Positions 1 to 63,210 of a stretch of DNA of 64,000 bases are shown piece by piece. The notes beneath the pieces were generated by a model, which saw only the letters and a list, made by a program, of their open reading frames with translations, searched no databases and was not told where the DNA came from. The position numbers were made by a program, and so were the translations under genes. How positions within the stretch are numbered: the first letter of the stretch is position 1; each line of letters opens with the position of its first letter. The stretch comes from the human T2T-CHM13v2.0 reference genome, Homo sapiens: the NCBI RefSeq assembly GCF_009914755.1, contig NC_060926.1; one strand, written 5' to 3'.

Positions 1-1800
1 TCTATCATTGATGAGCATTTGGGTTGGGTCCAAGTCTTTGCTATTCTAAATAATGCTGCAATAAACATATGTGGACATGTGTCTTTATAGTAGAATGATT
101 TATAAACCTTTGGGTATATACCCAGTAATGGGATTGCTGGATCAAATGATATTTCTAGTTCTAGATCCTTGAGAAATTGCCACACTGTCTTCCACAATGG
201 TTGCACTAATTTACACTCCCACCAACAGTGTAAAAGTGTTCCTATTTCTCCACATCCTCTCCAGCATCTGCTGTTTCCTGACTTTTTAATTATCACCATT
301 CTAAATGGCATGAGATGGTATCTCATTGTGGTTTTCATTTGCATTTCTCTAATGACCAGTGAAGACGAGCTTTTTTTCATAGGTTTGTTTGCTACATAAA
401 TGTCATCTTTTGAGAAATGTCTGTTCATATCTTTCACCCACTTTTTGACGGGGTTGTTGGCTTTTTTCTTGTAAACTTGTTTAATTTCTTTGTAGATTCT
501 GGATATTAGCTCTTTGTCAGATGGATAGATTGCAAAAATTTTCTCCCATTCTTTGGGTTGCCTGTTCACTCTGCTGATAGTTTCTTTTGCTGTGCAGAAA
601 CTCTTTAGTTTAATTAGATCCCATTTGTCAATTTTGGCTTTTTTTGCCATTGCTCGTGGTGTTTTAGTCATGAAGCCTTGCCCATGCCTATGTCCTGAAT
701 GGTATTGCCTAGGTTTTCTTCTAGGGTTTTTATGATTTTAGGTCTTACATTTAAGTCTTTAATCCATCTTGAGTTACTTTTTGGATAAGGTGTAAGGAAG
801 AGGTCCAGTTTCAGTTTTGTGCATATGGCTAGCCAATTTTCCCAGCATCATTTATTAAATAGGGAATCCTTTCCCCATTGCTTGTTTTTGTCAGGTGGTC
901 AAAGATCAGATTGCTGTAGATGTGTGGTGTTATTTCTGAGGCCTCTGTTCTGTTCCATTGGTCTATATATCTGTTTTGGTACCAGCACCATGTTGTTTTG
1001 GTTACTGAGCCTTGTAGTATAGTTTGAAGTCAGGTAGCGTGATGCCTCCAGCTTTTTACGTTGTGCTTAGGATTGTCTTGGCTATGTGGGCTCTTTTTGT
1101 GGTGGGCTCTTTTTTTGGTTCATATGAAATTCAAAGTAGTTTTTTCCTAATTATGTGAAGAAAGTCAATGGTAGCTTGATAGGGATAGCATTGAATCTAT
1201 AAATTACTTTGGGCAGTATGGCCATTTTCATGATATTGATTCTTCCTATCCATGAGCATGGAATGTTTTTCCATTTCTTTTTGTCCTCTCTTATTTCATT
1301 GAGCAGTGGTTTGTAGTTCTCCTTGAAGAGGTCCTTCACATCCCTTCTAAGTTGTATTCCTAGGTATTTTATTCTCTTTATAGCAATTGTGAATAGGAGT
1401 TCACTCATGATTTGGCTCTCTGTCTATTACTGGTGTATCAGAATGCTTGTGATTTTTGCACATTGATTTGTATCCTGAGACTTTGCTGATGTTGCTTATC
1501 AGCTTAAGGAGATTTTGGGCTGAGATGATGGGGTTTTCTAAATATACAGTCATGTCATCTGCAAACAGAGACAGTTTGACTTCCTCTCTTCCTATTTGAA
1601 TACCCTTTATTTCTTTCTCTTGCCTGATTGCCCTGGCCAGAACTTCCAATACTGTGTTGAATAGGAGTGGTGAGAGAGGGCATCCTTGTCTTTTGCTGGT
1701 TTTCAAAGGGAATGCTTCCAGTTTTTGCCCATTCAGTATGATATTGGCTGTGGGTTTGTTATAAATAGCTCTTATTATTTTGAGGTTCGTTCCATAAATA
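1..1800 (-). mobile_element. L1PA (approx. L1PA7/8) fragment, ORF2 3' half; 5'-truncated, 3' end runs off the window
   Basis: ORFs 1151..1408 ([23 protein letters not shown]) and 1401..1706 ([12 protein letters not shown]...LFADDM) are L1 ORF2 RT-domain peptides with frameshifts. Confidence 0.93.
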
Positions 1801-2760
1801 CTTTTATTTCTTTTTATTTTTTCCTATTTTTACTTAGGTTTAGTGGGTACATGTGCAGGTTTGTTTCATGGGTAAACTGTGTGACACTGAGATTTGGTGT
1901 AGGAATGATCCCATCACTCAGATAGTGAGAATAGTTTTTCTACCCTCGCCCCCATCTTATCCTCCCCTCATCTAGTAATCCTGAGTGTCTATGGTTCCTA
2001 TCTTTACATGCATATATACTCAATGTTTAGCTTCCACTTACAAATGAGATCATACAATATTTACAATATTTGGTTTTCTGTTTCTGTTTTAGTTTGCTTA
2101 TGGTAATGGCCTCCAGTTGCATTCATGTTGCTGTAAAGAACATGATTTCATTCTTTTTATGGCAGTTTAGTATTCCATGGTGTATATGTACTACATTTTC
2201 TTTATCTTCTCCACTATTGTGAATAGTACTATTATGAATATATGGGTTTATGTGTCTTTTTGATAGAAAAATTTATTTTCCATTGGATATATACCCAGGA
2301 GTGTAATTGCTGGATCAAATGGTAGTTCTCTTTTAAGTTCTTTGAGGAATCTTCAAACTGCTTTCTACAGTGGCTGTACTAATTTACATTCCCACCAACA
2401 GCCTATTCCCTGCAAGCTTGCCAACATCTGTTACTTTTTGTCTTTTTAAAAATAACCATTCTGACTGGTGTGAGATGGTGTCTCATTGTAGTTTTGATTT
2501 GCATCTTTCTGATGATTAGTGATTAGCAATTTTTCATTTATTTGTTGGCCAGTTGTATGATCTTCTTTGAGAGGTGTGTGTTCATGTTCTTTGCCCACTT
2601 TTTAATGGGGTCATTTGTTCTCTTGTTGATTTGTTTAAGTTACTTATAGATTCTGGATATTAAACCTTTGTCAGATGCATAGTTTGTAAATGTTTTCTCT
2701 CATTCCGTTGATTGTCTTTTTACTCTGTTGATAGTTTCTTTTGCCTTGCAGAAGCTCTTT

Positions 2761-2887
2761 ACATTTATTTCTAGTGTTCCATTATTGGAATGCCAAGCTT
2801 GTGGGAGTGATTTATATCCTACCGCCCAAGGTCATCACCAAGGTCTGATTTTTCACACAGAAATTTGCAACCTCTGGTATAAATGGG
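2761..2887 (+). mobile_element. MER85 piggyBac (PGBD3-derived) MITE
   Basis: Matches the recalled MER85 consensus: CATTTAT..CTAGTGTTCCATTATTGGAA..GTGGGAGT..TTTATATCCTAC..CAAGGTCATC..CCAAGGTCTGATT..TTGCAACCTC..ATAAATGGG. It is followed by TTAA (2888-2891) and sits at the L1 'gtttaattag' site. Confidence 0.9.
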
Positions 2888-3813
2888 TTAATTTAGTCCC
2901 ATTTGTCAATTTCTGGCTTTGTCAAAATTGCTTTTGGGGACTTAGTCATAAATTCTTTGCCAAGGCTGATATTCAGAATGATATTTCCTATGTTTTTCAG
3001 GATTTTCATAGTTTGGGGTCTTACATTTAAGTCTTTAACCCATCTTGAATTCATTTTTGTATATCGTGAAAGGTAGCATCCAGTTATATCCTTCTGTATA
3101 TGGCTAGCCAGTTATCCCAGCACCATTTATTGATTAGGGAGTCCTTTCCTTATTGCTTATTTTGGTTGACTTTGTTGGAGTTCAGATGATTGTAGGTGTC
3201 TGGCTTTATTTCTAGATTCATATCCCATTCCATTAGTCTACATGTCTGTTTTTGTACCAGTCCTATGCTGTTTTGGTTGCTATAATCTGCTAGTATATTT
3301 TGAAGTCAGGTAGTGTGATGCCTCCAGCTTTGTTCTTTCTGCTTAGAATTTCTTGTGCTGTTTGAGTGCTTTTTGGTTCCATATAAATTTTAGAATAGTT
3401 TTTTCTAATTCTATAAAAATGACTTTGGTAATTTGACAGAAATAGTATTGAATCTGTAGATTTCTTTGGGCAGTATAGACATTTTAATGATATTGATTCT
3501 TCCAATCTATGAACATGGAATGTTTTTCCATTTGTTTGTGTCATCTGTGATTTCTTTCAGCAGTGTTTTGTAGCTCTTCTTGTAGAGTTCTTTCATCTCC
3601 TTGTTTACATGTATTCCAAGGTACTTTATTTATTTATTTATTTATTTGGGTGGCTATTGTAAATGGGACAGCACTCTAGATTTGGCTGTCAGCCTTAATG
3701 TTATTTATGTGTAGAAATGCTACTGATTTTTATACATTGATTTTGTATCCAGAAGCTTTGCTCAAGTCATTTATCGGGTCTAGGAGCCTTTGGTGGAATC
3801 TTTAGGGTTTTCT

Positions 3814-4603
3814 TTTTTTGTTTTTTCTTTCCAACTTTTATTTTAGGTTCAGGGAGGTCTTGTGAAGGTTTGTTAACTGGGTAAACTGCATGTTGCAGGG
3901 GTTTGGTGCAGAGATTGTTTTGTCACCCAGATAGCGAGCATAGTACCCAATATAAGTAGTTTTTCAACCCTCACCCTCCTTCAACCCTCCACCCTCAAGT
4001 AGGCCCCAGTGTCTATTGTTCCCTTCTTTGTGTCCACGTGTACTCAATGTTTATCTCCTACTTGCAAGTAAGAACATGAGATATTTGGTTTTCTGTTCCT
4101 GCATTAATGTGCTTAGGATAACGGCCTCCAAACTCCAGCCATTTTACTGCAAAGGACATGATTTCATTATGGCTGTGTAGTATTCTATGATGTATATGTA
4201 CTGCATTTTCTTTATTCAGTCCATTACTGATGGGCATCCAGGTTTATTTCATGTCTTTGCTATTGTGGAGGAGGAAGGACTCCTCCCTAACTCATTCTAT
4301 GAGGCCAGTATCATTCTGATACCAAAGCTGGCAGGAACACAACAACAACAAAAAAACTTCAGGCCAGTATTCCCTGTGGACATAGATGAGAAAAAACCTC
4401 AACAAAGTGCTAGCAAAATCCAGCAGCACATCAAAAGGTAATCTACTACAATCAGGTAGAGTTTATTACTGGAATACAAGATTGGTTCAATACATGCAAA
4501 TCAATAATTATGGCTCATCACATAAACAGAACTAAAAACAGAAGCCACATGATCATATCAATAGATGGAGAAAAGGCGCTCAATAAAATTTAACATTATC
4601 TCA
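3814..4603 (-). mobile_element. 5'-inverted (twin-primed) L1PA insertion with 17-bp TSD
   Basis: AATCTTTAGGGTTTTCT occurs at 3797-3813 and 4604-4620. 3814-4265 is antisense poly(A) plus 3' end; 4266-4600 is a plus-strand ORF2 piece ([15 protein letters not shown]). Confidence 0.9.
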
Positions 4604-5087
4604 AATCTTTAGGGTTTTCTAGGTATAGAATCGTATCAGTGAAGATAAATAGTTTTACTTGTTCTTTTCCTATCTGGATGCCTTTTATTTCTTTCTCTTG
4701 CCTGATTGCTCTGGCTAGAAATTCCAATACTATGTTGAATAGGAGTGGTGAGAGTGGGCTGCCTTATCTTGTTCCAGTTATCAAGGGGAATGCTTCCATA
4801 TTTTGCCCATTAAGTATGATGTTGGCTGTGGTTTGTTGTAGATAGCTCTTATCATTTTCAGGTATATTTCATTAATGCCTAATTTGTTGAGAGGTTTTTA
4901 TCATTAAGAAATGTTGGATTTTATCAAAAACTTTTTCTGCATCTGTCAAGATGATTATCTGGTTTTTGTTTTTAATTCTGTTTATGTGGTGAGTCACATT
5001 TCTTGATTAGAGCATGTTAAATCAGGCCCGCATCCTAGGAATGAAATCTACTTGATTGTGGTAAGTTAACTTCTTGATGTGCTGCTA

Positions 5088-5553
<466 letters not shown>

Positions 5554-8561: not shown

Positions 8562-8786
8562 ATACTATATATATAGTATTGTGTATACATACATATATAC
8601 ACATACACATAGTATATATAGTGCGTGTGTATATATATATACACACACACAGTATATATACATATATACACATATAGTATGTATATATGTATACATATAC
8701 ATGTGTATACATGTAGAATATATACACACATATATACACATATAGTATATATGTGTGTGTGTGTATGTGTGTGTGTATATATATAT
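8562..8786. repeat. Compound (TA)n/(CA)n/(TG)n microsatellite
   Basis: About 225 bp of alternating purine-pyrimidine sequence. Confidence 0.95.
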
Positions 8787-8899
8787 TTCTATCTCCCTGG
8801 AGAGTATTCACTCATCTGTCTATTCATTTCTAACTTTAAAAATGTGTACATATTGCCTAATATTAATCATTCTCATGCTGTTTTTGTGTCTCTGGGTTT

Positions 8900-53490: not shown

Positions 53491-56460
53491 TCAGTAAAAT
53501 GGGAAAGATTAAAGAGTAGGATTTGGGGGCAAAATCAAGAAATACAGATACAAATGTGATATCAGGGTAAAAAGATATTTTCTAAGCAAGATGGCTATGG
53601 AAGAAGTGATAAAGGGAATCATTGTTAGATTTAACAACATTTCTGAATTATTTTTAAAAAACACACTTCTCTGAATTTCGTGGAATCAAAAGTGGTAGGC
53701 ACATATTTTGAGATGTCTCTCTTTTCTTCTATTCTTTCCTATTTCTTTAGAAATTATGCGTGTGGGTGTGAGCATGCACATGTGCAAATTTCTTTACACA
53801 CCAGAAAAAAATCAGATATTATAGTCAAAAGAATGTTCCACTTAATGACATAGTGAATTTAATGTTCTAATGAAAACACATGAGTACTTTTTCAAGAGGA
53901 TAATTCTACTGCACAGTAGCATGGTATTTGGTGAACATTACAGATCATTATTACTGTAATGGATGTTTTTCTCCAGATTTCCTGGTAGGAGATGTGGTGA
54001 GGTATTCCTCTGAATTTATGCATCTGAAATATGCCTACCAAGTCCAGAGCCTTAAACAGAGATCTTCTCTCTGAGCTGGTGTCTTGTTTAATAACCTGTA
54101 AATGACACTGTTATTGCTTCTTTGCCTCTCATTTATGAACACCATTATTTCTCACAGTGGGTTGTCTTTGTCAGAAAATAAGGGTAGAAAAAGTTTTTGA
54201 GCTTGTCAGAGATTTATTGATATAAATGAGAAAAAAAGTTGGGTCAAAATTAATGACAGTGGTTTTCTGTATAGGGTAAGGAGAACACATTTTAAAAATG
54301 ATGGCTCATTTTAAGATACATGATTCTGCCTTGGAACAATATCTCTTTTCTATTACTATGCTCTGGATTTCAAGTTTACATACTCATTTACTGTAGTTTT
54401 ATGCTGTCTAAGAAAAACAACAAAAGTTGGCTACATAAACAAGCAGAGGCCATCTGTCTTGAAACTCAGCATTTAAAAAGTTTTGCGTGTGTTGTTTCGT
54501 GACCATCAAACTATAGTATTTGGATTTAAGACATCTTTTGTTCATTATCAAACTGAACCATGATGGAAGGCATAAGCATGATAAAATGAATGCTTATCAG
54601 GACCAATCAGCTTTGTATTGTTCATAGTAATTTCAGCAAATACACAATTTGAAGGCTTATTGCTCCCTTGTCTCTCATCAGCAGAGAATAAGGAAATTAA
54701 ATCTGTAGAAAACATAAGTTTATTTGATACCTCAAATTTTAAAAAGCCCCTTTGGAGTAATTTGGGTTATAATAACCAAGTTTCCCTAATTGAAGAAAAA
54801 TCACCACTTATATAGCTAATTAGTCTGAGAAATGTTGATGTTTGAGTTGAAGTAGCAAATACTGACTGGAAGAGCCATGTATCTGCTAACATGGACACGC
54901 TTTCATCTCTGGTATTTTAAATGAATTTGTGACCTACATTCACGTTTCTTTTTAGTATTACTAATGTGATCAAATTCCAAGTTATTTTCCCTATGTCCCT
55001 CATTTTTCTTGCTTATAGAAAAACTTTTATATTCAGATTTTAGTAGTGAAGGAATTATAGTTTCTAATGCTTTAATAGCTTTCAAAATAATAAAGAGGAA
55101 TAAAAGTAGAGTTGAATGCATTGTTGGTTGAAATGCCACTTTAGAAAATGAAGTTTGATTTATTTCAAGGATAGATTTAGTGAGAGTAAGGGAAAGCATG
55201 TTTAAGAGCTAAAACACTTTTAATGACTCTTTACCAACTTCTGTTTCTTTTAGGGAGGGAGGTCTCAGGAAACGATGACATGCTGAGAATTTTGATGGCT
55301 GATCTTGCCATGGAGAACTTTGCAAGTTTGTGGGCCTAGAATTCAACTCTTTTCCTAGCTGCTAAAGTTGCTGTCTGTTACTTAGCATTCACTCTGATAT
55401 TTCTTATCAGTATTGACAAATGTGCTATGGGACAAACTGAGTGTTAAGAGCACAGCTTAGATAATTCACACAAAAAATGTGGAGACTATAAACCATTTCT
55501 TCTCTGCTGTATGATTACTGACTTAAATTTCCAAGATAATTAGCTTCAGGTGAGGGTAAATGCCAATGCACATTTGTGTTGAATTTTTGTTCAACTAATA
55601 TAGTTAACCAGTGAGGTGTTAAAAGTGTTGGAAGGTAGACTACCAAAACAAATTAAACTATTTTAGGAACAAATCTGATACTTTCTAAAAAAAATGAATA
55701 CCCAAGTTTGAAGTAGAAGAAGGAATGAGATTCTTTATTATGGGAAGAATGGAAACCAATAAGCCAATTTCCTAAGTTTTATCAAGCAAAAAGCTGTGTG
55801 TAAGCAGAAGCCCTAAGCAATGGATCATATGTGATTGTGTCATGCACGACATTGGCAAATTGATTTTTATTAGCTTCCCTAGACCTTTCACATAAATTTG
55901 ATAACACATTTTGCTGTTGGGAAAACTGAGATTACTTAGAAGTGCTAGGATTATAATATATTTGATATGGCTAACATAGGACAGTTAGGGTATCAGTAGC
56001 AGTTTCTGATTTTCTATGCTTTGTAGAATCATGAGTTCTGTTTTGACCTTGGGTTCTTTTCACAAAGTGAAATTATATAATGGATGCTTTGTTTTTTGGA
56101 CTGGAAGTCTGTATTGATTGATGAAATGCTCCAAGAATTCCGGGAAAATTGAATGTCTTGAGAGTTTTAATCTAGAGTCCCTACATCCAACTCCCAACTC
56201 TTTCCTATTCTCCCAAAGCCTACTCCTTTACACAAATAAATGTTTCCGTTTAGGGTTACTAGATCCTACTGTGGCAGTGAACACCATGTGGATGAGAATA
56301 AATGCAGGATTCCTACTATGTTTGAGATTTAAGTTGCTGAGTTTCCCATAAAGTTATGTTCCAGGTGTTTTTAATTTCCTTCTCTTAGTTTTGATAACTG
56401 AATATAGTTTTATCAGTCTACCACAATAAAGTATTATTTAAAAGTATATATTAATAAATA

Positions 56461-59400
56461 TGTTTGTTTTCTTATCAAATGACAGTTATATTTCCAAGTT
56501 AGCCCTTTATTCTTCCTGGTTTTGTATTTATGTGACAGGAATGACTCACTTCACTATATATTTCTATTTAGCCAGAGAACATCATCACTAATTTTGAAAA
56601 AGATTATGCTTTGAGAACCTAAACATTTTAAACATCAGTGGCAGGTATGCAGATGGAAGTAAGTTATATTTTGAAACTATGCTTTAAAAGACTCACATAA
56701 AAAACAATGACATGTATATAATTTTTATGCTATATACCATATTCAGAACAAAGGAAAGGAACTACTCTGTTACTTAAAAAATAACATTTTTCCCTGAAAC
56801 CTTAAACTTTCCTCAAAAATTAATATGTGCATTACAGAAAAAACAGAAGTTCAAGAGGCAAAAACACAAAATCTTCCAAAATTATAAGGAGTTTACAGTT
56901 TGATGTGTCTTTCTGAGTCCTTGTAGATATATAATGATAAATGAGCATACAGTTTCATGTGGTTTCAATTCTAAAGTATGTATTGCTTTTTTATGTTGTG
57001 AATATTTACTAATTCTAAGTCCCAAAGCCATGATAACCAAGAATACGTGCCAATCACTCAATCAAGAAAAAGTGTAATTCTGACTTTCATGGGGACAAAA
57101 TTTCATAAAGACAAAATTGGCAAAAGGCATTTGGATAAATATTGGTAGAGTTACAAGAATATACTGTGTTGGCCAGGCACAGTGCTCGCATCTCTAATCC
57201 CAGCACTATGGGAGAATGGGTGGCAAGATCACTTGAGGCCAGGAGTTTGAGACCAGCCTGGGCAACAGAGCAAGACCTTGTCCCTACAATTTTTTTTTTT
57301 AATTAGCCAGGCATGGCAGTGCGTGCCTGTAGTCTTAGCTACTTGGGAGGCTGAGGCAGGAGGATGTCTTGCACCCAGGAGTTTGAAACCATGATGAGCT
57401 TTAATTGCACCACTGCACTCCAGCCTGGGTGACAGACCCAGACTGTCTCAAAAAAAAAACAAACAAAAAAAAACTACACATTTCCTTAATGTTCAATTTA
57501 AAATGTGGCAGGAGAATACAAGTATGATGCTTCTGTGAGAATTTATTATCAGATCTATACTATTAAAATATCAGGAAGAAAATGTTCCCATCAAATTATT
57601 TAATAGCGTATTCATATATTATAGCCCCAAGTGAAGCACATATGCATCAATGGATATTATTAAATTATGAATGTGTATAGAACTGCATAATCCCACTCTG
57701 CACTTTCTTTTGTCCCTCCCCACTAACCCAGTGAACAACCCTGATGCATGCTTAGAGATGCTTTAAAATTCCCTGTCCATAATGCTTATTCAGTATTAAT
57801 TATAATATATCTACAAATTGGTTAACTCTGCTATTTATCACATATTGCTACCTCAATATATGGAAGATCTTAGATGTTAAGAAATAAACAATGCACATTG
57901 TTCTTAATAAACACAGGCACTCACAAAATATCCATGTATAGAACTTTGGTCTGTGCTATCTTCCACAAAAGGATATACTATCAAGGAGTCCATTTTTCTT
58001 CTTCCACCATCTCAGTGACTAAGCACAAAAATGTGCCTAGCTCCAAAAGGTTGATTGACAAAAAGCAATTCCCAAAGATAGTATTTCTTAATCAATGAAC
58101 ACAAGTCTATTTATAAAGAGGTTATTTTTATCACCTCTACTTTTAGGCACTTAGGAATCATTTGTTTTATAAATATAGATCAATAGTAACTAAAATGCAC
58201 ATACAGAACAGTAGTTAGACAATCTCCTCTGGTTTAACAGCTCCTGGGTATAGAACCCTACTCTGCCTCTGCCACCCAGAGAACAGTCCCATTCCCAAAA
58301 GGCAAATATCCATATGACTTCCTAACAAAAAAGTGTTTTTATAGCCTCTGCTTTCAATACAGGTTGTGTACTTAAAACATCTAGAAAGGCTAGATATTTA
58401 AAATAAAGCTTGTTTGTGCACTATATACACAATAGCATCGAATAAATTGCATGCATGGGCCAAAGGCTAATATAAAAGCATCTTTTCAACAGGAACCTTC
58501 TAGCCTAGAACCTTTTCTTTTTGTACCCCTCTCAACCCACTGTACAAGTGTAAGCATCTGTAATGCTTAGAGATGATTTTAATAATTTTACATCCACAAG
58601 TCATTTTCAGAATATACATTTTTACACAAAATATACTGGTTTATAAACTTTGTCATACAGTGGCAATCTCCTTAACTCCTGATGTAAAATTAAGACTCAT
58701 TTTTCCATTATATTTGCATATACATATATGACAAGTACATAGACCTATTCAGCTCACTGTAAACTAACTGGAGTAGAACCTTTGCACTTCATTCTCTCCT
58801 TCCTCCCCTGAAACCAGTGTACAAACATAATGTGCTACCCGAAGAAGTGGTTTGGTCACTTCATTTCTAAAAGAAATGTTTCACATAAACTTTAAGAGTA
58901 TTTAAAAATTATCATATTAAAATTTGTCTAGTGAAAACAAAATATATACAGTATAGCAAAGTTAAAATTCACATTAGGATGTAGGGCATCAGATAATCAG
59001 AAATTTTCTAGTACGCACCAGAAAACTTTTGAAACTTCTTTCCTCCCACCTTCTTCAACCCAATGAGTAAGTACAAACAATATAATGCTCAAAGTAGTAG
59101 TTTAACAATTCCATTTCCAAAGATAATATTACATAAGTTTTAAAAGCTATTTACAAAGTGTTTTTTAGTACCTCTACTTTTAAATATAGCTGGTACTTAG
59201 GAACATCTAGAAAGACTATGTACTCCAAATAGGAACTTGTCCATTATAAATAATACTGTTAAATAAAACTACACAAACAATTCTAATCAGAAAGTCTCTA
59301 AATATGACCATTCTGACCTTGAATTATTTCTTCCTTTCTTTCTTCTCTTTACGACCTTTCCAGTGGCCAAGTACAGATTATGTAATATGAAGTATAATTG

Positions 59401-59790
59401 AACAAATCCATATCCAAGTCATTTACAGAAGTCAAGTTTTCCTGTGAGTTTTGAAACAAAGTGTATAAAATGTACTGATCTTATTTTTACTAAATCTACT
59501 GTGTCATACACTGGCAATCTTTTTAACATATCTAGTAACTATTAATAGATGTTGGAAAATTAGGAGTCATTTTTCTATTGATATGCTACATATACAGCAA
59601 AACACAATACACATAACATCCGGGAAGTGGTTTATTTGAAACTGTCTGTCTACTAATAACACTAAGAAAATTATCTTTTGTAATTTCTTCCTTCCCACTT
59701 TTGTTAAACCATTGAACAGTATTGATAGTGTTATACTGGTCTTGGAAGTATTTTTTTTAAAGTAAGGAAGAAGGAATTACAAAAGATAAT
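56461..59790 (-). pseudogene. Putative processed pseudogene of the lncRNA NORAD (LINC00657); core repeat array 57640-59790, 3' extension tentative
   Basis: About 8 degenerate ~250-350-bp units; 4 perfect minus-strand UGUANAUA motifs plus several 1-mismatch copies; resemblance to recalled NORAD sequence; candidate AATAAA (56505-56510) and decayed A-tail (56461-56473). Confidence 0.7.
57171..57473 (+). mobile_element. AluJ inserted into the putative NORAD-like sequence
   Basis: Diverged Alu with ggaggatgtcttgcacccaggagtttga. Confidence 0.92.
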
Positions 59791-59794
59791 TTTC

Positions 59795-61358
59795 TTAGTG
59801 TTACTTTGAACACAATATTTTGAAGTATGTCTACATTGGGAAATGGTTCAATTAAGTCAATTAAAATATGCATTATCTCACATTCCTATTTTTGTAGTAA
59901 GAACTATTAAAATCTATTTTTTCAGAGATTTTCAAGGATACAATACATTGTCATTAACTGCAGTCACCATGTTGCAAAATACATCTCTTGAACTTATTTC
60001 TCTGTAACTAAAATTTTGTATCCTTTGACCAGCCCAGCATCTTCTCAACCCCCTATACAACCTCTAGTCCCTAGTAACCAGCATTCTACTCTCTACTTCT
60101 GTGAGTTCAACTTTTTAGATTCCACCTGTGAGATTTTGGCATTATTTGTCTTTTTGTGCCTTGATTATTTCACTTAACATGATACCCTCCAAGTTTATCT
60201 ATGTCGTCACAAATAGCAAGATATCCCTCTTTTTTAAGGCTGAGTAGTGTTCCATTTTGTGTAAGTACCACATTACCTTCATCCAATGATAAATACATAG
60301 GTGGTTTATATATCTTGACTACTGTGAGTAATACTGCAATGAACATGGGAGTGCAGACATCTCTCTGACATATAGATTTCATTTCTTTTGGATATATACC
60401 CAGTAGTGGGATTGCTGGATCGTATGGTACTTCCATTTTTAATTTTTTGAGAAACCTTCATACTGTTTTTGATAATGGCTATACTAATTTTCATTTCAGC
60501 ATGTGCAAGAGTCCCCTTTTCTCCACATCCTTGTCATAGCTTATCTTTTTTCTTTTTGATAACAGACATTCCAACAGCCATGCGAGGATACTGTGGTTTT
60601 ATTTTGCATTTTTCTGATGATTTGTGCCTTAGTCCATTTGTGCAGCTATAACGGAATACCTGAACCTAGGTAATTTATAAAGAATAGAGACATATTTCTT
60701 ACAGTTCCGGTGGCTAGAAAGTTGAAGTCTTCCCGACTGGTGAGGGCCTTCCTTCACCAAATGTGAAGCATCTTTCACCATCTGGTGAGCGTCATCCCAT
60801 GGTGAAAAGTGGAAGAACAAGATAGTGTGAAAGCATGTACATGTGAGAGAAGGGGACCCAAACTCATTGTATTTATCAGGAACTCACCCCATCAATAATG
60901 GCATTAATTCATTAATGAGGACAGGACCCTCATGACCTAATCATTTCTTAAAGGTTCCACCTCTCAACACTGTTGCATTGGAGATTAAGTTTCCAACACA
61001 CGAACTTTAGGGAACACATTCGAACCATAGCATTTAGTGATGTTAAACATTCTTTAATATACCTGTGGGTCATTTGCATATCCTATTTAGAGAATGTCTA
61101 TTCAGGTGCTTTTCTTATTTTAAAAGCAAGTTATTTTGTTGTCTTGCTTTTAAGTTGTTTGAATTCCTTATATATTTTGAATATTCCTTAACAGATGTAC
61201 AATTTGCAAATATTTTATCCCATTCTCTGTGTAGTCTCCTTACTTTGCTGATTGTTCCTTTGTTGTGTGGGAGCTTTATAAATTGATGTATTCTCATTTG
61301 TCTATTTTTGGTAGTGTTACCTCTGTTTTTGGGATCATCTCCAAAAAAATCATTGCCC
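59795..61358 (-). mobile_element. L1MA (5-8-like) 3' fragment
   Basis: Antisense L1MA 3' UTR; ORF 60170..60436 ([18 protein letters not shown]). Confidence 0.85.
60625..61032 (-). mobile_element. MST/MLT1A-type MaLR solo LTR nested in the L1MA
   Basis: tgccttagtccatttgtgcagctataac...acacattcgaaccatagca. Confidence 0.85.
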
Positions 61359-61708
61359 GGTACAGTCCTTAAAGATTCATCATTAAGATTTTTGAAAATA
61401 TGCAGTATATGAGGGGCATTTAAATAACCTATAAATTTGTCTTTAGCAGTGAAGCAGCATCAATGGTTCTGTCAACCAGCTTTGATTATTCCAAAGAACT
61501 TAGAAGTGCAAAGAGGAGTCAGTCTATGAATAAAATCTAAGCCATGACCTTAATAGTAAACTCTTATTTAATGACAGCTTATCATATTTATTGCATTACA
61601 GTGGAATACCACGATTACAATACTGGGGTGAAATAGAGATCAGCGGTTCTTTTTGTCCTAAGGCTAGAATTTGGAAAGTGCTATGATGGGATAAGTATTG
61701 GTTACAGA

Positions 61709-63210
61709 TATTATGGCAGTGATGGCCTGTCTAGAGCAGCTGCTGCCATGATGCTGGCTGCAGTGGGGGAGGTGCAGCCAGCATCATGAGGTGGGAGCCC
61801 TGCCCCCTTCTGAGTTCGTGGGCAGGAGTCCTGCACTTCATGATGCAGCTGCAGCCACCCAGCCATGGCTGTGGACCTGGGCATCACTCTGCTCTTGGGG
61901 GCCCAGGAGGCCTCTTGCCCCTGCAGGCTTGAAAGTGCCTGCTCTCACTCCCTGCACCTGCTCAAATTTTGGAGCAAAATTGAAGCTGACCCCTGGTGCG
62001 ATTACAACCCAGCCAGGTGTGCATGTACTCAAGGTGGCACTGACACACCAGCCCCCTGCCACCTTGGCCCTCTCTGGATTTTGGGTGATAATGAGTACAG
62101 GAGGGAAGACAAGGGTGGCTTCATATGGACCTGCAGGCACCCCTCAGCATGAACAGCCTAGGTACCATGGACAACATGATTGATGGTGGCAAGAGGCAGG
62201 CAGGCTCCTGGGCAGAAAAGGGAAGGTCCTTGGCAAAGCCCCACCTTCAAGCCAGGGATGGCCTGAAGCCTAGAGGTTTGGCTGCCAGTTCTATGAACTG
62301 GAGTGAGAACTTATGGTGCTTTTCCAGGCCCACCCATGGAGCACATGGACAGATCAGCATGGACTTCATCCCCTCTGAAGCCCATAAAAATCCTGGAGTC
62401 AGCCGCAACTTGGGGATACGACCTGCCTGTGGGAAGGAGCTACCCACTCTGGCTCTCGTCTTGGCTGTGAGCTGCACACTTGTACGGATGACCTGCCTGT
62501 GGAAAGGAGCTGTCCTTTGTATGTCTCCTGGGAACTGTTCAACTGCTCAATGAAGCTCCTCTCTACCTTGCTCACCCTCCAGTTGTCCGTGTACTTTGTT
62601 CTTCCTGGATACAGGACAAAAACTCAGGACCTGCCAAATGGCAGGACTAAAAGAGCTGTAACAGAAACAGGGCTGAAACATGCTCCCCACCACATCCCGC
62701 TCACCACATCGTAGGCAATGGGGACAGACGAGTTGTAGCCTTTCATGGAGCACAGACCTAGGGGATCCCTGAGCCAGGGCTGTGACACCCTCTGTGGAGT
62801 TCTATGGTTCTTGGCATCTCCAAGCTTCCGAATGCTACTGCATTTCCCTTGTCCAGATATGGATGCCTGCAGCAGAAGCTGTATGTAGCACATCTGGTCC
62901 AGCTGCAGCCTTGCACAGAGCCATCACCTGTGTTGGCATCTGGAGCTGCCTGCCCTCTGCAGCAGCTAGCCTGTCTGGCTGTGCGCAATGGCTGGGCCCC
63001 ATTCTCACTCATTTACACACCTCTCACCACTCTGTGCCTGGCTCGCCCTTGGCAGGTGTGGGATCTGGGCTGGTAACAAGACCTGAACACAGCCTGCTGG
63101 GCCGAGTGGGTGGAACAAGCCCAGTGGGCATGAGCAATACTTAGGCAGAAGGCGCCACCAGCCACAGAGGTTTCCAGCTGGTGAAGTGACACCTCAAGGA
63201 TCCTGTGACA
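61709..63210 (+). mobile_element. MER52A-like ERV1 long solo LTR
   Basis: atggcagtgatggcctgtctagagcagctgctgccatg...ggatcctgtgaca; TSD caga/caga; GC-rich. Confidence 0.85.

What the first reader, a model, noticed from the sequence alone, without database searches (positions are those of the whole stretch)
57640..59790. Hidden degenerate repeat array with strand-biased Pumilio response elements: probable ancient NORAD lncRNA retrocopy
Seen: this region is not a recognisable TE but is built from ~250-350-bp units. A pyrimidine tract plus (A)ACCCA/CCAGTG..ACAA block recurs at ~57700, 57990, 58260, 58510, 58790, 59035, 59330 and 59685. A ~815-850-bp higher-order period is visible: ATGCTTAGAGATG at 57748 and 58563; CCTCT.CTTT..TACTTA..ACATCTAGAAAG at 58345 and 59171; TGTCATACA.TGGCAATCT at 58651 and 59502. 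Four perfect Pumilio elements (UGUANAUA) lie on the minus strand (57808-57815, 58422-58429, 58943-58950, 59148-59155), with one-mismatch copies at 58611, 58711, 58717, 58899, 59420 and 59589. I found none on the plus strand in the array. Established: NORAD is built of ~300-nt repeats carrying PREs that sequester PUM1/PUM2, and NORAD retrocopies such as HCG11 exist. Inference: this is a strongly diverged NORAD-family copy that still keeps several intact PREs. If transcribed, it could be an unannotated PUM decoy.
Basis: partly seen in the sequence, partly recalled or inferred. Interest (0 to 1): 0.85.

Follow-up and report, generated by a model that had tools for sequence, protein, structure and literature searches.

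The report
Ancient decayed NORAD lncRNA retrocopy
This stretch of human chromosome 2 is a very old, broken, 5'-truncated copy of the Pumilio-binding lncRNA NORAD that still carries four inherited Pumilio sites, and it is most likely an inert pseudogene.

Summary
The four perfect UGUANAUA elements lie on the minus strand at the stated places, with none on the plus strand.

A search of the window's own genome with the minus strand hits the NORAD locus on contig 20 (E 1.3e-74) and about 30 other NORAD-derived loci. The window's minus strand 59758→~56790 is collinear with NORAD nt ~1896→~5330 of 5342. That span covers repeat units NRU#5 to #12 plus the unique 3' tail. An Alu interrupts it at 57171-57473, and about 0.4 kb around NRU#8 is missing.

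All four PREs sit at positions homologous to NORAD PREs, so they are inherited, not new.

It is the most diverged of 40 NORAD-derived loci compared: K2P 0.347, against ≤0.215 for 35 of them.

It lacks NORAD's promoter, poly(A) signal and tail. PRE retention (4 of 9) is only borderline above neutral expectation (P≈0.05-0.09 after correction). An equally old copy keeps 0 of 5.

NORAD pseudogenes are a known class (PMC4947167, PMC6407921). This is a new, unusually old member, and decoy function is unsupported.

The parts
57479..59758 (-). NORAD-derived body. Collinear with NORAD nt ~1896-4943, which covers NRU#5, #6, #7 (partial), #9, #10, the #10a/b region, #11 and #12.
   Evidence: blastn HSPs: window 59741-59097 = NORAD 1896-2528 (69.8%, 662 nt, E 1e-72); 59051-58921 = 2534-2671; 58591-58372 = 3431-3654; 58225-57993 = 4172-4400; 57825-57479 = 4592-4943. 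Global alignment. NRU numbers were assigned by finding the primers of PMC8192489 Table S1 by eye in the NORAD line. NRU#5 was placed by position only.
57171..57473 (+). Alu insertion that splits the NORAD copy (a later event).
   Evidence: Rfam Metazoa_SRP and Alu-derived miRNA-family hits at 57224-57451. A-rich tail at 57450-57473. NORAD homology stops at 57479 and resumes at 57152.
56790..57152 (-). NORAD 3' tail (unique, non-repeat part), NORAD nt ~4959 to ~5330 of 5342.
   Evidence: HSPs 57152-57064 = NORAD 4959-5050 and 57028-56815 = NORAD 5109-5312. Single HSP 57152-56815, 66%, E 1.7e-12. The global alignment continues to about 56790. No AATAAA/ATTAAA and no A-run longer than 5 on the minus strand of 56650-56900.
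59148..59155 (-). Intact PRE UGUAAAUA, homologous to the NORAD PRE at nt 2469 (3' end of the NRU#6 fragment).
58943..58950 (-). Intact PRE UGUAUAUA, homologous to the NORAD PRE at nt 2642 (NRU#7).
   Evidence: HSP 59051-58921 = NORAD 2534-2671. The global alignment misplaces this stretch.
58422..58429 (-). Intact PRE UGUAUAUA, homologous to the NORAD PRE at nt 3596 (NRU#10).
57808..57815 (-). Intact PRE UGUAGAUA, homologous to the NORAD PRE UGUAAAUA at nt 4602 (NRU#11). Only the free fifth base changed.
59589..59596 (-). Decayed PRE (TGTATATG), at the place of the NORAD PRE at nt 2042 (NRU#5).
58711..58724 (-). Two decayed PREs (TGTATATG and TGCAAATA), at the place of NORAD PREs 3278 and 3287 (NRU#9).
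58860..58921 (-). Deletion scar. About 60 nt stand where NORAD has ~430 nt (nt ~2672-3100: the end of NRU#7, its spacer, and NRU#8 with PRE 2975).
   Evidence: Gap between the HSPs. Poor alignment there. The paralogous blocks #5/#9 and #6/#10 lie 851/826 nt apart here, against ~1220/1230 in NORAD.
59759..59803 (+). Inverted duplicate of the first ~45 nt of the copy (NORAD nt ~1937-1982), abutting its 5' edge. It is younger than the copy.
   Evidence: Inverted repeat I1: arms 59657-59701 / 59759-59803, 89% complementary. Self hit.

Best explanation
Window 56790-59758 (T2T-CHM13 chr2:184,320,790-184,323,758, minus strand) is an ancient processed pseudogene of the lncRNA NORAD (LINC00657, chr20).

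Origin (inferred). A NORAD transcript was reverse-transcribed from its 3' end into chromosome 2, presumably by L1 machinery in the germ line. Synthesis stopped early, so only NORAD nt ~1896-5342 (NRU#5 to #12 and the 3' tail) were inserted, without the promoter.

Later history. The copy has drifted neutrally: about 27% raw difference from NORAD, a ~0.4-kb deletion around NRU#8, an Alu insertion, a small inverted duplication at its 5' edge, and loss of the poly(A) signal and tail.

The repeats and PREs. The ~270-300-nt 'units' and the strand-specific Pumilio elements are simply NORAD's repeat units and PREs seen through this decay. Four of the nine parental PREs survive by descent.

Status of each claim. 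Shown here: the homology, the collinearity, the extent, the PRE homology and the relative age. Inferred: the L1-mediated mechanism, neutrality, and an insertion before the eutherian radiation. It most likely does nothing today.
For: (1) The genome-wide search with the minus strand finds contig 20:37.77 Mb (E 1.3e-74) and ~30 further loci. Nearly all of these (27 of 32 by my reading of the two hit lists) are also hit by NORAD itself.

(2) That contig-20 locus is NORAD. It has 15 UGUANAUA on its minus strand against 1 on the plus strand. It is a 5342-nt unit bounded by the ends of its young retrocopies, with AATAAA about 20 nt before the end. Both published NORAD qPCR primers (PMC8097224) match exactly, facing each other 81 bp apart. 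The fragment lengths of PMC8192489 Table S1 also fit.

(3) A collinear chain of 7 HSPs runs from NORAD nt 1896 to 5312, including the non-repeated 3' tail, and a global alignment agrees. Alternative registers score far lower (265 bits against <=107).

(4) Nothing matches NORAD nt 1-1895 beyond paralogous hits inside the copy, and nothing matches the DNA downstream of NORAD's poly(A) site.

(5) The Alu that human NORAD carries at nt 3665-3953 is absent from the copy.

(6) All 4 PREs align to NORAD PREs 2469, 2642, 3596 and 4602. Three one-mismatch sites align to PREs 2042, 3278 and 3287.

(7) Signs of decay: K2P 0.347 and ts:tv 292:235. None of the 7 aligned NORAD CpGs is kept. No poly(A) signal or tail remains.

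Against: The classical hallmarks of L1-mediated retroposition were not recovered. There is no A-tail (longest A-run 5). No target-site duplication was sought successfully, because the 5' edge is rearranged by the inverted duplication and the divergence is too high. NORAD is unspliced, so intron loss cannot be used.

PRE retention is higher than a plain neutral null. It is 4 of 6 HSP-covered sites or 4 of 9 parental sites, against an intact-8-mer rate of 0.11-0.13 elsewhere in the same alignment (P=0.002-0.02). Per-base identity at PRE positions is 0.857, against 0.723 elsewhere.

After allowing that ~17-25% of differences arose on NORAD's own lineage, P is 0.05-0.09 for 4 of 9 and about 0.01 for 4 of 6. 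This leaves a weak hint of constraint that I cannot dismiss without other species. Transcription was not tested.
Confidence: 0.9

Rival explanations
1. Same origin, but exapted. The copy is transcribed from the minus strand from some foreign promoter, and its four PREs are kept by selection as a minor Pumilio-binding RNA or as part of an unannotated transcript.
For: PRE retention is above the plain neutral expectation (4 of 9; P 0.012-0.022). Per-base identity at PRE positions is 0.857 against 0.723 elsewhere. HCG11 shows that a NORAD copy can be expressed (PMC4947167 section 5; PMC7976429 passages).
Against: NORAD's promoter is not included (the copy starts at nt ~1896). AATAAA and the tail are lost. 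An Alu and a 0.4-kb deletion lie inside the copy. There are 4 PREs against 15 in NORAD. RefSeq has no gene in or within 100 kb of the window (hub note).

After correcting for NORAD-lineage changes the excess is P 0.05-0.09. The region was chosen for its PREs, which is an ascertainment bias. The equally old copy at contig 10:6.33 Mb keeps 0 of 5 covered PREs and contig 13:42.17 Mb keeps 1 of 5. Pooled over 39 other loci, PREs survive only 1.18 times better than other 8-mers (130 of 260 against 110 expected).
Confidence: 0.04
2. A DNA-level (segmental) duplicate of part of the NORAD locus, or a relic of an old NORAD paralogue, and not a retrocopy of the RNA.
For: No poly(A) tail or target-site duplication was found. 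NORAD has no introns whose loss would prove an RNA intermediate (PMC4947167 section 5).
Against: Homology stops within ~10-30 nt of NORAD's poly(A) site, although 200-350-nt HSPs are detectable right up to it. Nothing matches the next ~350 nt of the contig-20 flank. The copy is 3'-anchored and 5'-truncated, lies on another chromosome, and is one of at least 40 dispersed copies with a graded age series, typical of a retroposing master gene.
Confidence: 0.04
3. Not NORAD-related: a transposon-derived or satellite array whose likeness to NORAD and whose PREs are chance in AT-rich DNA.
For: The region is AT-rich (68% A+T), and one-mismatch PRE-like words are as common on the plus strand (15) as on the minus strand (12).
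Against: E 1e-72 for a 662-nt collinear HSP, followed by six further collinear HSPs through NORAD's unique 3' tail. All four PREs are at homologous positions. TRF finds no array. Nearly all genome-wide relatives of the region are loci that NORAD itself also hits.
Confidence: 0.01

Closest known systems
NORAD (LINC00657), chr20, the parent gene
   Same: Same order of repeat units NRU#5-#12 and the same unique 3' tail. PREs at the same four homologous positions. The purine-rich tract, PRE and hairpin layout of each unit is still recognisable.
   Different: About 27% raw difference (K2P 0.347). It lacks nt 1-1895 with the CpG-island promoter and NRU#1-4. It has 4 PREs against 15. It has lost NRU#8, the poly(A) signal and the tail, and carries a foreign Alu. 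It lacks NORAD's own Alu.
HCG11 (chr 6p22.2) and the other young NORAD pseudogenes (four with >90% over >4 kb, Tichon et al. 2016, PMC4947167)
   Same: Dispersed, unspliced copies of the NORAD transcript on other chromosomes, so the same class of element.
   Different: Those copies are near full length and 88-97% identical to NORAD, K2P 0.017-0.09, and keep 8-13 of 15 PREs. HCG11 is expressed. The window's copy is 4-20 times more diverged, truncated and unannotated. I identified contig 6:26.39 Mb as HCG11 only from its place and its 90% identity (PMC7976429 gives 6p22.2 and 91%).
The two other very old NORAD copies found here (contig 10:6.33 Mb, K2P 0.332; contig 13:42.17 Mb, K2P 0.268)
   Same: The same deep age class, well apart from the 35 loci at K2P <=0.215.
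   Different: They are independent insertions, no closer to the window's copy (69-74%) than to NORAD. They keep 0 of 5 and 1 of 5 covered PREs, against 4 of 6 here.
PRE-dense sequences that arise in transposable elements (for example PLCXD1, 18 PREs, cited in PMC4947167 section 8)
   Same: A cluster of PRE words in non-coding, repeat-like DNA.
   Different: Here the PREs are inherited from a lncRNA at homologous positions, not created within a TE family.

Membership tests
NORAD processed pseudogene (retrocopy) | Significant, collinear sequence homology to the mature NORAD transcript. | tested here: met
   7 collinear HSPs covering NORAD nt 1896-5312, best E 1e-72. Global alignment. Genome-wide hit to the NORAD locus at E 1.3e-74.
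NORAD processed pseudogene (retrocopy) | Homology limited to the transcript: it ends at the poly(A) site, with no flank homology. | tested here: met
   The last HSP ends at nt 5312 and the global alignment at ~5330 of 5342. There are no hits to the ~350 nt downstream of the poly(A) site or to the promoter side. Sensitivity at ~70% identity is limited.
NORAD processed pseudogene (retrocopy) | 3'-anchored with 5' truncation (typical of L1 target-primed reverse transcription). | tested here: met
   The copy begins at NORAD nt ~1896, between NRU#4 and NRU#5. No NORAD 5' part is found elsewhere in the 64-kb window.
NORAD processed pseudogene (retrocopy) | Poly(A) tail remnant at the 3' end. | tested here: not met
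   The longest A-run on the minus strand of 56650-56850 is 5. This is expected after ~0.3 substitutions per site, so it is weak evidence against.
NORAD processed pseudogene (retrocopy) | Target-site duplications flanking the insert. | not tested
   The 5' edge is rearranged (inverted duplicate 59759-59803). At this divergence a ~15-nt duplication would not be recognisable.
NORAD processed pseudogene (retrocopy) | Located away from the parent gene. | tested here: met
   Contig 2:184.32 Mb against contig 20:37.77 Mb.
Functional NORAD-like Pumilio decoy lncRNA | Very high number and density of PREs (NORAD: 15 UGUANAUA / 17 UGURUAUA). | tested here: not met
   4 perfect PREs in ~2.6 kb of NORAD-derived sequence, against 15 in 5.3 kb of NORAD.
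Functional NORAD-like Pumilio decoy lncRNA | Own strong promoter and a canonical poly(A) site giving an abundant transcript. | tested here: not met
   The promoter-bearing 5' part is absent. There is no AATAAA/ATTAAA at the 3' end. Expression itself is not testable with these tools.
Functional NORAD-like Pumilio decoy lncRNA | Sequence constraint on PREs and NRU motifs. | tested here: inconclusive
   4 of 9 PREs are kept. P is 0.012-0.022 against the plain null and 0.05-0.09 after lineage correction. Ascertainment bias applies. No other species are available.
Functional NORAD-like Pumilio decoy lncRNA | Bound by PUM1/PUM2 in cells. | not testable with these tools
   No CLIP data are on hand.
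Tandem satellite / TE-internal repeat array | Head-to-tail units detectable by self-comparison, and many near-identical copies genome-wide. | tested here: not met
   TRF finds no 250-350-nt array. There are only 3 weak self HSPs. Genome-wide relatives are NORAD-derived loci at 65-87% identity (mostly 65-77%).

The most novel reading that the evidence does not exclude
The four surviving PREs have not merely escaped decay by luck. They are held by selection, because the minus strand is transcribed at low level or in a restricted tissue as a Pumilio-binding RNA. That would make this a roughly 100-150-million-year-old exapted NORAD fragment.

A milder version is much likelier (about 0.5). The copy is a stem-eutherian molecular fossil. 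It would show that the ordered NRU#5-#12 array and at least PREs 2469, 2642, 3596 and 4602 already existed roughly twice as far back as the bulk of NORAD pseudogenes. That would narrow the time between NORAD's birth (it is absent in opossum, PMC4947167) and the completion of its repeat array.
Probability: 0.04. Interest if true: 0.6.

Novelty: new member of a known kind. Interest (0 to 1): 0.25.

Why it matters
In practical terms, this is one more unannotated NORAD-derived locus, one of at least 40. Such loci can soak up multi-mapping RNA-seq or CLIP reads and mimic a 'PRE cluster' in motif scans. Kopp et al. (PMC6407921) already had to map reads to Norad first for this reason.

In evolutionary terms, it is the most diverged of the 40 copies compared. 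Its own branch is about 0.33-0.37 substitutions per site, roughly twice the oldest of the main series (<=0.17). It already has NRU#5-#12 in today's order and four PREs in today's positions. It is therefore independent, within-genome evidence for Tichon et al.'s claim that the unit duplications predate the eutherian radiation. If dated through orthologous loci, it would give a minimum age for the array.

It does not open a new mechanism.

Tried and rejected
(1) Rfam scan of 55000-62000 at E<=1. It found only Alu/SRP-related and L1-associated weak hits. No Rfam family matched the region, so it gave no help with NORAD.

(2) Tandem Repeats Finder and self-BLAST. The unit periodicity is too decayed to be shown from the window alone. 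I dropped the idea of building a unit model from the window's own units.

I rejected it as a true period. NORAD's own dominant self-offsets are ~600 nt (602, 579, 596, 653) and multiples of that. The window's 826-872 offsets are four-unit paralogy shortened by a deletion.

(4) A single global alignment mis-aligned window 59099-58900. I used the BLAST HSP (NORAD 2534-2671) for PRE 2642 instead. One HSP kept by my projection (NORAD 1293-1400 to window 58858-58753) is a paralogous misassignment. It inflates the 'range' printed (12 PREs in range), so I use 9 PREs 3' of nt 1896.

(5) Twin-priming 5' inversion as the source of the inverted repeat at 59657-59803. I rejected this because the arms are 89% alike while the copy is ~70% like NORAD, so the duplication is much younger than the insertion.

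(6) Search for the missing NORAD 5' part beyond the L1-like sequence at >59.83 kb or elsewhere in the window. Nothing above chance was found.

(8) Absolute dating was not possible. No other mammalian genomes and no repeat consensus library are on hand.

(9) Literature. Searches found no description of this locus or of ancient NORAD retrocopies. Only general statements on NORAD pseudogenes were found (PMC4947167, PMC6407921). Lee et al. 2016 (Cell) is not in the library and was not seen.
Full report
**Observation.** The region was read and scanned for UGUANAUA. Four perfect sites lie on the minus strand at 57808, 58422, 58943 and 59148. None lies on the plus strand between 57640 and 59790. At the window's own background this is more than chance gives: 0.62 expected per strand, P=0.004, or P=0.001 without a TA-rich stretch at 8594-8852. 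However, one-mismatch words are as frequent on the plus strand (15) as on the minus strand (12). The array itself is too decayed to detect unaided. TRF reports no 250-350-nt period. A self-BLAST gives only three HSPs, at offsets 826-872. The same search gave none in 20 shuffles, and none in 5 of 6 control stretches of the window.

**What it is.** The minus strand of 57640-59790 was searched against the window's own genome. It hit contig 20:37,767,287-37,770,898 (minus; best E 1.3e-74, 71% over 645 nt) and about 30 other dispersed loci at 65-87% identity, mostly 65-77%.

The contig-20 locus (fetched as L013) is NORAD, on four grounds:
- Its minus strand carries 15 UGUANAUA and 17 UGURUAUA words, against 1 and 0 on the plus strand.
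- Young retrocopies delimit a 5342-nt unit with AATAAA about 20 nt before its end.
- Both NORAD qPCR primers printed in PMC8097224 (passage) match exactly, facing each other 81 bp apart.
- The in-vitro fragment primers of PMC8192489 Table S1 fit the coordinates (fragment NORAD#1 = 1903 nt).

That NORAD lies on chr20 is also my recollection.

**Collinearity and extent.** Sensitive blastn of the window's minus strand against the locus gives a collinear chain.

| Window (minus strand) | NORAD nt | Detail |
|---|---|---|
| 59741-59097 | 1896-2528 | 662 nt, 69.8%, E 1e-72 |
| 59051-58921 | 2534-2671 | |
| 58591-58372 | 3431-3654 | |
| 58225-57993 | 4172-4400 | |
| 57825-57479 | 4592-4943 | |
| 57152-57064 | 4959-5050 | beyond an Alu |
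| 57028-56815 | 5109-5312 | |

A global alignment extends this to about nt 5330 of 5342. The element therefore spans about 56790-59758, longer than reported, and includes NORAD's unique 3' tail. This excludes a mere NRU-like repeat of other origin.

I placed the NRU primers of PMC8192489 Table S1 by eye on the NORAD line. On that basis the copy starts in the spacer after NRU#4 and contains NRU#5, #6, #7 (part), #9, #10, the #10a/b region, #11 and #12. NRU#5 has no primer in that table and was placed by position. About 0.4 kb (NORAD ~2672-3100, with NRU#8) is missing.

Three further points fit a 3'-anchored, 5'-truncated retrocopy:
- The Alu that human NORAD carries at nt 3665-3953 is absent from the copy.
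- A different Alu sits at 57171-57473.
- No NORAD 5' part is found elsewhere in the window, and no homology is seen downstream of NORAD's poly(A) site.

The classical end marks were not recovered. There is no A-run longer than 5 and no AATAAA/ATTAAA. Target-site duplications were not sought, because the 5' edge is rearranged.

The eight pyrimidine-tract blocks on the plus strand are the purine-rich tracts that precede each NRU in NORAD. NORAD's own self-similarity is dominated by two-unit offsets of ~600 nt and their multiples. The window's 826-872-nt matches pair NRU#5/#6 with #9/#10, which are ~1220-1230 nt apart in NORAD. They are closer here because of the 0.4-kb deletion. So there is no real 815-850-nt period.

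**The PREs.** All four perfect PREs align to NORAD PREs: 2469 (NRU#6), 2642 (NRU#7), 3596 (NRU#10) and 4602 (NRU#11). The one-mismatch sites at 59589, 58717 and 58711 align to PREs 2042, 3278 and 3287. Descent fully explains the strand bias.

NORAD has nine UGUANAUA sites 3' of nt 1896. Their fate in the copy is:
- four are intact;
- four are lost by substitution;
- one (2975) is lost with the deletion.

**Is the retention more than neutral?**
- Within the same alignment, the fraction of other 8-mers intact at the seven fixed positions is 0.111 (all) or 0.132 (AT-rich, CpG-free). That gives P=0.002-0.004 for 4 of 6 HSP-covered sites and 0.012-0.022 for 4 of 9.
- This null is too harsh. PRE columns are frozen in NORAD itself, while other columns also changed on NORAD's lineage.
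- I polarised differences with paralogous NRUs. This assigns ~17% (window) to 20-33% (other copies) of differences to NORAD's lineage.
- With that correction P is 0.05-0.09 for 4 of 9 and ~0.01 for 4 of 6.
- The region was chosen because of its PREs, which biases the test.
- The two other very old copies keep 0 of 5 (contig 10:6.33 Mb) and 1 of 5 (contig 13:42.17 Mb). Pooled over 39 other loci, 130 of 260 covered PRE sites are intact against 110 expected, a ratio of 1.18.

I read this as a weak, unproven excess.

**Age.** I compared 40 NORAD-derived loci, all projected on NORAD with the same blastn settings. Two had fewer than 500 aligned nt.

| Loci | K2P to NORAD |
|---|---|
| 35 loci | 0.017-0.215 |
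| contig 13:42.17 Mb | 0.268 |
| contig 10:6.33 Mb | 0.332 |
| this window | 0.347 |

The window's copy is the most diverged. A FastTree GTR+gamma tree of 21 rows and 1980 columns was built with no rows dropped. It is comb-like, as expected for a master gene shedding copies. The window's copy attaches at the deep end, at ML distance 0.473 from NORAD. Its own branch is about 0.37, or about 0.33 if the master lineage evolves at a quarter of the neutral rate (my arithmetic). The longest other terminal branch is 0.172.

From recalled calibrations (about 0.17 substitutions per site on the human lineage since the human-mouse split), the insertion probably predates the eutherian radiation. This is an inference. 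Regional rate variation and alignment error at ~70% identity make it rough. It agrees with two statements of Tichon et al. (PMC4947167 sections 5 and 7, read whole): that the units duplicated before the eutherian split, and that NORAD is absent in opossum.

**Function.** The copy has no NORAD promoter, no poly(A) signal, an Alu and a deletion inside it, and 4 PREs against NORAD's 15. None of the 7 aligned NORAD CpGs is kept, and ts:tv is 292:235. RefSeq annotates no gene in or within 100 kb of the window (hub note). I therefore take it as an inert pseudogene (confidence 0.9 for the whole statement). An exapted PUM-binding transcript is left at about 0.04. Expression, CLIP and cross-species conservation could not be tested here.

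**Known or new.** NORAD pseudogenes are in print as a class. Tichon et al. [quoted passage not shown] Kopp et al. [quoted passage not shown] HCG11 is described as 91% identical, at 6p22.2 (PMC7976429, passages).

Three full-text searches found no description of this locus or of very old NORAD copies. Supplements other than PMC8192489 Table S1 were not read, and Lee et al. 2016 was not available. Verdict: a new, unusually old member of a known kind. The interest is modest.

Noticed in passing
window 59657-59701 and 59759-59803: A 45-nt inverted repeat (89% complementary, 57-nt loop) lies exactly at the 5' edge of the NORAD copy. The outer arm is an inverted duplicate of NORAD-derived sequence (nt ~1937-1982). 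It is far less diverged than the copy is from NORAD, so it is a later local fold-back duplication and not a twin-priming inversion.
   Followed up: partly
own genome: contig 10:6,327,228-6,327,799 (L038) and contig 13:42,167,075-42,168,350 (L034): Two other very old NORAD-derived fragments (K2P 0.332 and 0.268). With the window's copy they form a deep age class set apart from 35 loci at <=0.215. They keep 0 of 5 and 1 of 5 covered PREs.
   Followed up: partly
L013 (contig 20:37,764,500-37,774,499), NORAD nt 3665-3953: Human NORAD carries an Alu just after the NRU#10 core. The NRU#10 reverse primer of PMC8192489 Table S1 lies inside it. [quoted passage not shown]
   Followed up: partly
L013, NORAD nt ~1040-3660: NORAD's strongest self-alignments are at two-unit offsets (602, 579, 596, 653 nt) and their multiples (1199-1252, 1830-1872). 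One-unit offsets (270-324 nt) are far weaker. This suggests the array grew by duplicating a two-NRU block.
   Followed up: no
own genome, e.g. contig 16:64,532,000-64,539,600 (L020) and contig 6:28,481,000-28,488,200 (L014): Some older NORAD copies are riddled with Alu insertions. In one search, about 10 separate Alu-sized hits to NORAD's Alu segment fall within the 7.6-kb contig-16 locus.
   Followed up: no
window 60339-60442 (+): A mir-6130-like hairpin (55.9 bits, below the gathering score of 117) lies inside L1-like sequence that starts about 59.83 kb, next to the copy's 5' edge. It is probably a repeat-derived look-alike.
   Followed up: no
window 8594-8852: A TA-rich stretch yields 10 of the window's 37 UGUANAUA matches on both strands. 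It inflates the background rate of PRE words in this window.
   Followed up: no
window 61700-62400: An abrupt GC-rich stretch with a short palindromic piece near 61740-61790 lies after the AT-rich L1-like sequence. Only chance-level Rfam hits were found there (ar14, MIR6457). It is possibly another interspersed repeat and was not identified.
   Followed up: no
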